From assembly GCF_055900595.2 (NCBI RefSeq), contig NZ_CM148325.1: a stretch of 64,000 bases of DNA; one strand, 5' to 3'. The translations under genes were made by a program, and so were the position numbers. The notes beneath the pieces are model-generated. The model saw nothing but the letters and a program-made list of their open reading frames with translations. It searched no databases and was not told the DNA's origin. The number at the start of each line of letters is the position of its first letter. Within the stretch, counting starts at the first letter, position 1. Positions 47,827-47,853 of the stretch are shown piece by piece.

Positions 47827-47853
47827 GACAACGGTGCTCCTCGCACCGTTGTC
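47827..47853 (+). terminator. Perfect 11-bp stem-loop immediately after lpfD (no U-tract)
   Basis: GACAACGGTGC-TCCTC-GCACCGTTGTC; may act as an RNA-stabilising or terminating structure at the end of the fimbrial operon. Confidence 0.5.

What the first reader, a model, noticed from the sequence alone, without database searches (positions are those of the whole stretch)
47827..47853. Perfect 11-bp hairpin at the 3' end of the fimbrial operon, just upstream of the pstS Pho boxes
GACAACGGTGC-TCCTC-GCACCGTTGTC lies 7 bp after the lpfD stop and about 100 bp before the pstS Pho boxes. It lacks a U-tract, so termination may be inefficient. It may insulate the phosphate-regulated pstS promoter from fimbrial read-through or stabilise the fimbrial transcript.
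Basis: seen in the sequence. Interest (0 to 1): 0.2.

Follow-up and report, generated by a model that had tools for sequence, protein, structure and literature searches.

The report
Conserved 3'-end hairpin of fimbrial operon
A perfect 11-base-pair hairpin right after the last gene of a long-polar/Stg-type fimbrial operon is real and is kept by selection as an RNA structure on the fimbrial transcript, but it is an ordinary U-poor 3'-end stem-loop of a kind already described in E. coli.

Summary
GACAACGGTGC-TCCTC-GCACCGTTGTC lies at 47827-47853. It starts 6 nt after the TAA of the lpfD-like gene and ends 104 nt before the pstS Pho boxes. Only 1 of the first 8 downstream bases is U. It is not chance: shuffled windows give 0.07 such hairpins.

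I compared 16 distinct Escherichia alleles of this glmS-lpf-pstS locus, with LpfD identity down to 53%. The helix is kept while the flanks diverge (outer-stem identity 0.89/0.96, flanks about 0.5). Three pairs show compensatory changes, two of them with G·U intermediates. Every internal one-sided change is a G·U on the + strand and would be a C·A mismatch on the - strand. Selection therefore acts on the fimbrial sense RNA, not on a DNA palindrome or a minus-strand terminator, although the terminator scan flags only the minus strand.

The homologous hairpin passes the + strand terminator rule in two relatives. The window allele has the most eroded U-tract.

Best reading: a 3'-end stem-loop that terminates poorly by itself and marks and protects the mRNA end. 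Rho probably ends read-through in the 200-nt untranslated spacer. This class is known (Dar and Sorek 2018). Insulation of pstS is plausible but untested. Low interest.

The parts
47827..47837 (+). Left (5') arm of the RNA stem, GACAACGGTGC
   Evidence: The outer 8 nt have 0.89 mean pairwise identity across 16 alleles. The A-to-G changes here give G·U pairs on the + strand.
47838..47842 (+). Loop, TCCTC
   Evidence: Loop sequence and length vary among alleles (TCCAC, TCAAC, CCTTC, TCATC, GAT, and 7-8-nt loops), so the loop is not the conserved part.
47843..47853 (+). Right (3') arm of the RNA stem, GCACCGTTGTC
   Evidence: The outer 8 nt have 0.96 mean pairwise identity. CCGTTG is retained even in the Enterobacter loci L152 and L153.
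47854..47870 (+). U-poor tail AUCAGACACCUCUUUCU, where the U-tract of a canonical terminator would be
   Evidence: There is 1 U in the first 8 nt, against 3-5 in other alleles. The + strand is not called a terminator here. The homologous hairpins of L148 and O157 lpf2 are called.
47854..47957 (+). Untranslated spacer between the hairpin and the Pho boxes; inferred loading and termination zone for Rho
   Evidence: There is a mild C over G excess: 13 C to 7 G in the first 60 nt, and 20 C to 13 G overall. No ORF of note lies here. The role is inferred from the pattern described in PMC6061677 and has not been shown.
46747..47820 (+). Last gene of the fimbrial operon (lpfD-O113 / StgD-like tip subunit), whose transcript the hairpin ends

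Best explanation
The hairpin is a stem-loop in the sense transcript of the lpf-O113/lpf2/Stg-type fimbrial operon, placed 6 nt after the last stop codon, and it forms the mature 3' end of that mRNA. In this allele the U-tract has eroded, so on its own it releases RNA polymerase poorly. Polymerases that pass it enter about 200 nt of untranslated RNA with a mild C over G excess, where Rho most likely ends transcription. 3'-to-5' exonucleases (PNPase, RNase II) then trim the RNA back to the hairpin, which blocks them and protects the fimbrial mRNA. Shown here: the structure exists, it is non-random, and it is conserved at the RNA level on the + strand with covariation. Its position after the last fimbrial gene is conserved across alleles and genera, and the U content of the tail varies among alleles. 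Inferred: weak intrinsic termination, involvement of Rho, exonuclease trimming and transcript stabilisation.
For: The hairpin is present, stable and far above chance.

Sixteen distinct alleles keep the helix. On the + strand 93.7% of cells pair and the covariation score is 0.192, reached by 2 of 500 shuffles. The same helix read on the - strand gives 86.3% and 0.074.

There are compensatory changes at pair 8 (G-C to A-U, with a G·U intermediate in L155), pair 9 (U-A to C-G, with U·G in seven alleles) and pair 11 (C-G to U-A). The G·U changes at internal pairs 2, 4, 5, 8 and 9 are all wobbles on the + strand, and no internal C·A occurs.

The outer stem is 0.89/0.96 identical while the flanks are 0.50/0.55. 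The distance between the conserved half-sites varies from 25 to 29 nt.

A hairpin sits 3-13 nt after the last fimbrial stop codon, directly upstream of pstS, in every related locus fetched. These loci are from Escherichia with LpfD identity down to 53%, Enterobacter and Salmonella salamae.

Tail U content ranges from 1 to 5 of 8. The tool calls a + strand terminator in L148 and O157 lpf2 but not in the window or L140.

A Carafa-type score, with the formula recalled from memory, is negative for all of these hairpins and +39 for the glmS terminator 5 kb upstream.

Dar and Sorek 2018 describe this exact anatomy for Rho-dependent E. coli transcripts: a stable stem-loop, no U-tract, mild C over G downstream, and trimming by PNPase and RNase II. 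They note that terminators can switch type through U-content change and that Rho dependence goes with low expression (PMC6061677).

The operon is AT-rich relative to its neighbours (0.33-0.51 against 0.51-0.57 GC).
Against: No transcript data were available for any strain with this allele, so neither the 3' end nor Rho dependence is shown. The C over G bias downstream is only mild, and two relatives lack it: L150 has 7 C to 7 G and L153 has 9 C to 14 G. The strong primary-sequence conservation of the stem base goes beyond what a generic protective hairpin needs. The alleles are related, so the shuffle statistics overstate independence. The count of G·U against C·A events is small: 5 internal positions to 0, roughly p = 0.03.
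Confidence: 0.6

Rival explanations
1. It is a working Rho-independent terminator despite the poor U-tract. The long G+C-rich stem, perhaps helped by NusA or NusG, releases most polymerases at about 47855-47862 and so insulates the pstS promoter from fimbrial read-through.
For: The stem is strong: 11 bp, about -19 to -20 kcal/mol. Homologous hairpins in L148 and O157 lpf2 meet the tool's + strand terminator rule, which suggests a terminator ancestry. The hairpin is the only strong structure between lpfD and the pstS promoter.
Against: There is 1 U in the first 8 nt after the stem. The + strand is not called by the scan. The Carafa-type score is about -39, against +39 for the glmS terminator in the same window (formula from memory). 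Established knowledge of intrinsic termination requires a U-rich tract for pausing and hybrid weakening (summarised in PMC6061677). The stem starts 6 nt after the stop codon, so a terminating ribosome would cover part of the left arm (inference).
Confidence: 0.2
2. It is a terminator for minus-strand transcription (tail CUUUGAUUAA), for example for an antisense RNA started near the inverted Pho-box-like element at 47884-47902.
For: The simple scan lists it only on the - strand, with 5 T in the 8-nt tail. A Pho-box-like inverted element lies 30 nt away on that side.
Against: The T-rich minus-strand tail exists only in the window's allele group. Other alleles have GTTCGGTTA, GACTGCGGCTA, ATATGGTTTC or TGTGAAATTA there. 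All internal one-sided changes are C·A mismatches on the - strand, which gives 86.3% pairing against 93.7% and a covariation score of 0.074 against 0.192. I found no conserved -10 element between the inverted box and the hairpin by inspection (direct reading).
Confidence: 0.03
3. It is a DNA-level palindromic binding site for a dimeric regulator, or a PhoB-related site given TGTCAT in the right arm, and not an RNA structure.
For: The outer half-sites (T)GACAACGG / CCGTTGTCA(T) are unusually conserved in sequence. The right arm contains TTGTCAT, a 6-of-7 match to the Pho-box repeat CTGTCAT (direct reading; consensus from established knowledge).
Against: The spacing between the half-sites varies from 25 to 29 nt, which does not fit a rigid dimer operator. 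The inner stem covaries, which a protein site does not need. The asymmetry between G·U and C·A points to RNA. There is only one Pho half-site, with no second repeat 11 bp away.
Confidence: 0.05
4. It is a relic with no present function, for example a decayed terminator kept by linkage or recent common descent.
For: The U-tract is eroded in this allele group. The operon is usually poorly expressed (background knowledge, not tested here).
Against: The stem is conserved at 0.89-0.96 identity while the adjacent sequence is at about 0.5. Compensatory changes restore pairing. The only internal non-wobble mismatch (U·U) is in L012/L013, where the annotated lpfD is truncated to 477 nt.
Confidence: 0.07

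Closest known systems
3'-terminal protective stem-loops of Rho-dependent E. coli transcripts (Dar and Sorek 2018, PMC6061677)
   Same: It is a stable stem-loop just after the coding region, with stem, loop and energy like those of intrinsic terminators. There is no U-rich tail and no upstream A-tract, and C slightly exceeds G downstream. The gene is lowly expressed and AT-rich. The allele series shows the U-content drift that the paper proposes as the way terminators switch type.
   Different: There is no 3'-end, bicyclomycin or exonuclease-mutant data for this locus. K-12, the strain mapped in that study, lacks the operon. The stem base here is far more conserved in sequence than that role requires.
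Canonical Rho-independent (intrinsic) terminators
   Same: It has a G+C-rich hairpin at the end of an operon. Homologous copies in L148 and O157 lpf2 satisfy a hairpin-plus-T-run rule.
   Different: The window allele has 1 U in the first 8 nt and fails the rule on the + strand. Compare the glmS terminator at about 42550-42578, which has a T6 run.
REP/BIME extragenic palindromes that stabilise upstream mRNA
   Same: It is an intergenic, U-less palindrome at a gene's 3' end that could block 3' exonucleases. A REP-like palindrome sits between pstS and pstC in this window (49113-49146).
   Different: It is not a dispersed repeat: there is one place per genome in 499 E. coli genomes and one in the window. 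It has no similarity to the REP-like palindrome nearby (direct reading).

Membership tests
Canonical intrinsic (Rho-independent) terminator | Stable G+C-rich stem-loop at the transcript end | tested here: met
   It has 11 perfect pairs, 7 of them G-C, at about -19 to -20 kcal/mol.
Canonical intrinsic (Rho-independent) terminator | U-rich tract of 7-8 nt immediately 3' of the stem on the transcribed strand | tested here: not met
   The tail AUCAGACA has 1 U of 8. The + strand is not called by the scan rule of at least 5 T in 8. The rule is met in the relatives L148 and L004.
Canonical intrinsic (Rho-independent) terminator | Factor-independent release of RNA polymerase at the site | not testable with these tools
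   This needs in vitro transcription or in vivo read-through assays.
Rho-dependent transcript 3'-end protective stem-loop (Dar and Sorek class) | Stable stem-loop not followed by a U-rich sequence, located at the end of the transcription unit | tested here: met
   The position 3-13 nt after the last stop codon is conserved in all related loci.
Rho-dependent transcript 3'-end protective stem-loop (Dar and Sorek class) | C-over-G enrichment (rut-like) immediately downstream | tested here: inconclusive
   The window has 13 C to 7 G in the first 60 nt. Most alleles are similar, but L150 has 7 to 7 and L153 has 9 to 14. No background test was done.
Rho-dependent transcript 3'-end protective stem-loop (Dar and Sorek class) | Steady-state RNA 3' end at the base of the stem; read-through raised by bicyclomycin; extension in pnp or rnb mutants | not testable with these tools
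   No transcript data were accessible, and no paper on this locus's 3' end was found.
Conserved structured RNA element (selection on pairing) | Pairing maintained through compensatory and wobble changes on one strand | tested here: met
   On the + strand 93.7% of cells pair, the covariation score is 0.192 (2 of 500 shuffles reach it), and there are changes on both sides at pairs 8, 9 and 11. The - strand gives 86.3% and 0.074. Caveat: the alleles are related and the events are few.
REP/BIME dispersed palindromes | Many copies per genome sharing a consensus | tested here: not met
   There is exactly one place per genome in 499 genomes with a match, and one match in the window.
Rfam-described RNA family | Match to a curated covariance model | tested here: not met
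   Over the hairpin there is only a chance-level hit: sR40 at 16.9 bits against a gathering score of 50, E = 7.6.

The most novel reading that the evidence does not exclude
The outer stem (T)GACAACGG/CCGTTGTCA(T) is conserved in sequence, not only in pairing, across alleles whose adjacent LpfD protein is only 53% identical, and partly into Enterobacter. It carries a Pho-box-like half-site (TTGTCAT) 30 nt from a conserved inverted Pho-box-like element, in a fimbrial-operon-to-pstS arrangement kept across three genera. The hairpin could therefore be a sequence-specific regulatory element, such as a conditional terminator or a protein-recognised RNA or DNA site, that couples fimbrial read-through to phosphate status.
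Probability: 0.06. Interest if true: 0.5.

Novelty: new member of a known kind. Interest (0 to 1): 0.15.

Why it matters
It matters little beyond annotation. The hairpin gives the likely 3' boundary of the lpf-O113/Stg-type fimbrial transcript. It is also a small natural allele series in which one conserved stem-loop carries tails running from terminator-like to U-less, which illustrates the proposed drift between intrinsic and Rho-type 3' ends. It is relevant to anyone engineering the glmS-pstS (attTn7) region in strains that carry this operon, because read-through into pstS cannot be excluded.

Tried and rejected

2. Rfam at a permissive threshold found nothing meaningful over the hairpin.

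3. The minus-strand terminator reading suggested by the scan was rejected on tail non-conservation and C·A mismatches.

4. The DNA operator or PhoB-site reading was rejected as the main explanation because of the variable half-site spacing, the covariation and the single half-site.

5. Membership of a dispersed repeat (REP-like) family was rejected because the hairpin is single-copy per genome.

6. A terminal inverted repeat of a mobile island was rejected because no matching arm lies at the glmS side.

7. A small ORF explaining the conservation was rejected. Only a mechanical 38-aa GTG ORF overlapping lpfD runs through the hairpin.

8. An attenuator hairpin after the major-subunit gene lpfA was looked for. 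Folding of 43395-43475 gives z = -0.2, so none is present.

9. Literature searches for this hairpin or for lpf/stg 3' ends found nothing. The Stg fimbriae paper (PMC1595498) is not held.

Full report
**Observation.** The sequence shows a 357-aa ORF ending with TAA at 47818-47820, followed by TCAAAG. The hairpin is GACAACGGTGC (47827-47837), TCCTC (47838-47842) and GCACCGTTGTC (47843-47853). It has eleven perfect pairs, seven of them G-C. The tail is ATCAGACACCTCTTTCT. The first Pho-box repeat of pstS starts at 47958, and pstS starts at 48063. The gap after the stop codon is 6 nt, so the stem begins at the 7th base.

RNAfold forms the hairpin in both the minimum-energy and the centroid structures. 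The 101-nt context has z = -3.5, and none of 200 shuffles folds as well. Perfect hairpins of at least 11 bp with 3-10-nt loops occur at six loci in the window, against 0.07 +/- 0.25 in dinucleotide shuffles. This is therefore one of a handful of real structures and not a chance match.

**Context.** The ORFs are glmS (40704-42533), a chaperone-usher operon and pstS. The operon comprises a major subunit (42839-43411), a chaperone (43459-44190), an usher (44194-46737) and a tip-like subunit (46747-47820). RefSeq annotates near-identical E. coli loci as lpfA/B/C-O113 plus 'fimbrial protein', followed by pstSCAB-phoU. NCBIfam scores the last gene best against StgD and then LpfD, both below the curated cut-off. 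About 2,000 of 5,426 complete E. coli genomes carry a version of this operon at this site. K-12-like genomes have none, and their homology with the window resumes only at the Pho boxes. The window's own allele is rare: 11 genomes at 95-99% identity, the best at 98.9%. Its LpfD is 99% identical to a protein labelled E. fergusonii.

**Comparative evidence.** I fetched 14 E. coli alleles of the lpfD-pstS spacer from complete genomes. Through LpfD homologues I fetched 17 more loci from assemblies. In every one the fimbrial tip gene is followed directly by pstS, and a hairpin sits 3-13 nt after the stop codon. This holds also in Enterobacter (47-48% LpfD identity) and Salmonella enterica subsp. salamae (46%).

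Across 16 distinct Escherichia alleles (LpfD identity down to 53%) the outer stem (T)GACAACGG / CCGTTGTCA(T) is nearly invariant. Its mean pairwise identity is 0.89 and 0.96, against 0.50 and 0.55 for the 25 nt on either side. The inner stem and the loop change. Three pairs change on both sides:
- Pair 8: G-C to A-U in L003 and L150, with G·U in L155.
- Pair 9: U-A to C-G in L014 and L016, with U·G in seven alleles.
- Pair 11: C-G to U-A in L002 and L003.

An extra base that bulges in L003 is paired in L150. The distance between the outer half-sites ranges from 25 to 29 nt.

On the MAFFT alignment, the helix read on the + strand has 93.7% of cells paired and a covariation score of 0.192, reached by 2 of 500 shuffles. 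The same helix on the reverse complement has 86.3% and 0.074. The reason is that every internal one-sided change (pairs 2, 4, 5, 8 and 9) is a G·U on the + strand and hence a C·A on the - strand. The only + strand C·A is at the loop-closing pair. Five internal positions against none gives only a modest count (about p = 0.03), and the alleles are related. Even so, the direction is consistent with selection on the fimbrial sense RNA.

The Enterobacter loci and O157:H7 lpf2 carry a related hairpin, CAACGGCTGT-ttatg-ACAGCCGTTG and GCGGCTGT-tttatg-ACAGCCGT. The Enterobacter version keeps CAACGG/CCGTTG, but the inner stem is different. The Salmonella locus has an unrelated hairpin in the same place.

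**Which strand, and what kind of element.** The simple scan lists the hairpin as terminator-like only on the minus strand, because CTTTGATTAA follows it there. That tail is peculiar to the window's allele group. Other alleles have non-T-rich sequence there, and the mismatch pattern argues against the minus strand. The variable half-site spacing and the covariation argue against a DNA operator. The element is single-copy per genome and unannotated, it matches no Rfam family, and no ORF explains it.

**Termination properties.** The number of U in the first 8 nt after the stem is 1 in the window group, 0 in L012, 2-4 in most other alleles, and 5 in L148 and in O157 lpf2. With the same scan, the homologous hairpin is called a + strand terminator in L148 and in O157 lpf2, but not in L140 or the window. 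A Carafa-type discriminant, whose formula I recalled from memory and used with modern energies, is negative for all of these hairpins. It is most negative for the window (-39), and it is +39 for the glmS terminator 5 kb upstream. The family thus looks like a terminator hairpin whose U-tract ranges from marginal to absent, and the window sits at the U-less extreme.

**Mechanism.** Dar and Sorek (PMC6061677) mapped E. coli 3' ends. They found that Rho-dependent transcripts end just after stable stem-loops that are energetically like intrinsic terminators but lack U-rich tails and upstream A-tracts, with a mild C over G excess downstream. These ends arise by PNPase and RNase II trimming back to the stem-loop. 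Terminators could switch class by changing U content, and Rho dependence goes with low expression.

The present hairpin fits that description:
- It has no U-tract.
- Downstream, C exceeds G: 13 C to 7 G in the first 60 nt, and 20 to 13 up to the Pho boxes.
- About 200 nt of untranslated RNA lie before the pstS ribosome-binding site.
- The operon is AT-rich.

My best reading, at confidence 0.6, is a sense-strand 3'-end stem-loop that terminates weakly by itself and mainly defines and protects the mRNA 3' end, while Rho ends read-through downstream. The structure, its conservation and its strand are shown. Rho, trimming and stabilisation are inferred. The main rival, at 0.2, is that the strong stem still terminates efficiently without a U-tract and so insulates pstS. 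Sequence alone cannot separate the two.

**Comparison with what is known, and novelty.** The element works like the protective 3' stem-loops of Rho-dependent transcripts, and it descends from, or grades into, an intrinsic terminator. It fails the U-tract criterion of the canonical terminator and the multicopy criterion of REP elements. I found no paper describing it, and the paper most likely to mention it is not held. It is a new member of a known kind and of low general interest.

The one feature that goes beyond the ordinary is the sequence-level conservation of the stem base. This includes a TTGTCAT Pho-box-like half-site, with a conserved inverted Pho-box-like element 30 nt downstream. 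Together they leave a small chance (about 6%) of a sequence-specific regulatory role linking fimbrial read-through and phosphate control.

Noticed in passing
window 47884-47902: ATGACAT-AAAAG-ATGACAT reads on the minus strand as two TGTCAT repeats, like a Pho box in inverted orientation. It is conserved as CATGACAAAAAGATGACAT in almost all lpf-O113-type alleles, where the repeat period is the canonical 11 bp. The window alone has a 4-bp deletion (GACA) that changes the period to 12 bp. The element is absent from the more distant loci L148, L152 and L153.
   Followed up: partly
window 47929-47941: AATCAATAAATTA matches the IHF consensus WATCAANNNNTTR (consensus recalled from memory). It lies about 20 nt upstream of the first Pho box. 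Similar AATCAA...TTA blocks are kept in most alleles, and K-12-like sequence has a weaker version there.
   Followed up: no
window 42534-42838 and 47854-47957: The whole glmS-pstS intergenic region is replaced relative to K-12-like genomes. Sequence diverges immediately after the glmS stop codon and rejoins at the Pho boxes. The window therefore has its own glmS terminator (AAAAGGGCUGCC-GACG-GGCGGCCUUUUUU, about 42550-42578) in place of the K-12 one that overlaps attTn7. The terminator scan did not list this canonical terminator.
   Followed up: partly
L140-L156 (related loci): A Stg/lpf-type tip-subunit gene lies directly upstream of pstS in Escherichia alleles down to 53% LpfD identity, in Enterobacter (including E. 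hormaechei) and in Salmonella enterica subsp. salamae. The fimbrial operon to pstS junction is therefore old and widespread, not a recent E. coli island.
   Followed up: partly
window 49113-49146: A perfect 12-bp palindrome, ATGCCGGATAAG...CTTATCCGGCAT, lies between pstS and pstC. It is REP-like and, like the lpfD hairpin, has no U-tract.
   Followed up: no
window 921-948, 30642-30669, 38840-38869, 58338-58368: Four other perfect hairpins of 11 bp or more occur in the window. The one at 38840 has A4 and T4 flanks, like a bidirectional terminator.
   Followed up: no
L012 and L013 (E. coli NN5, USMARC-49610): The only alleles with an internal non-wobble mismatch (U·U) in the stem and 0 U in the tail are those where the annotated lpfD is only 477 nt, apparently truncated. 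This fits relaxed selection once the operon decays.
   Followed up: no
L019 (E. coli R1): An ISEc8 insertion leaves only a 96-nt 3' remnant of lpfD. The spacer with the hairpin is identical to that of the intact O113-type allele L003.
   Followed up: no
L152 and L153 (Enterobacter), L004 (O157 lpf2): In these versions the right arm overlaps a second possible hairpin, TATGACA-GCCGT-TGTCATA. Two mutually exclusive stems can therefore be drawn, and the stronger one is the terminator-like stem.
   Followed up: no
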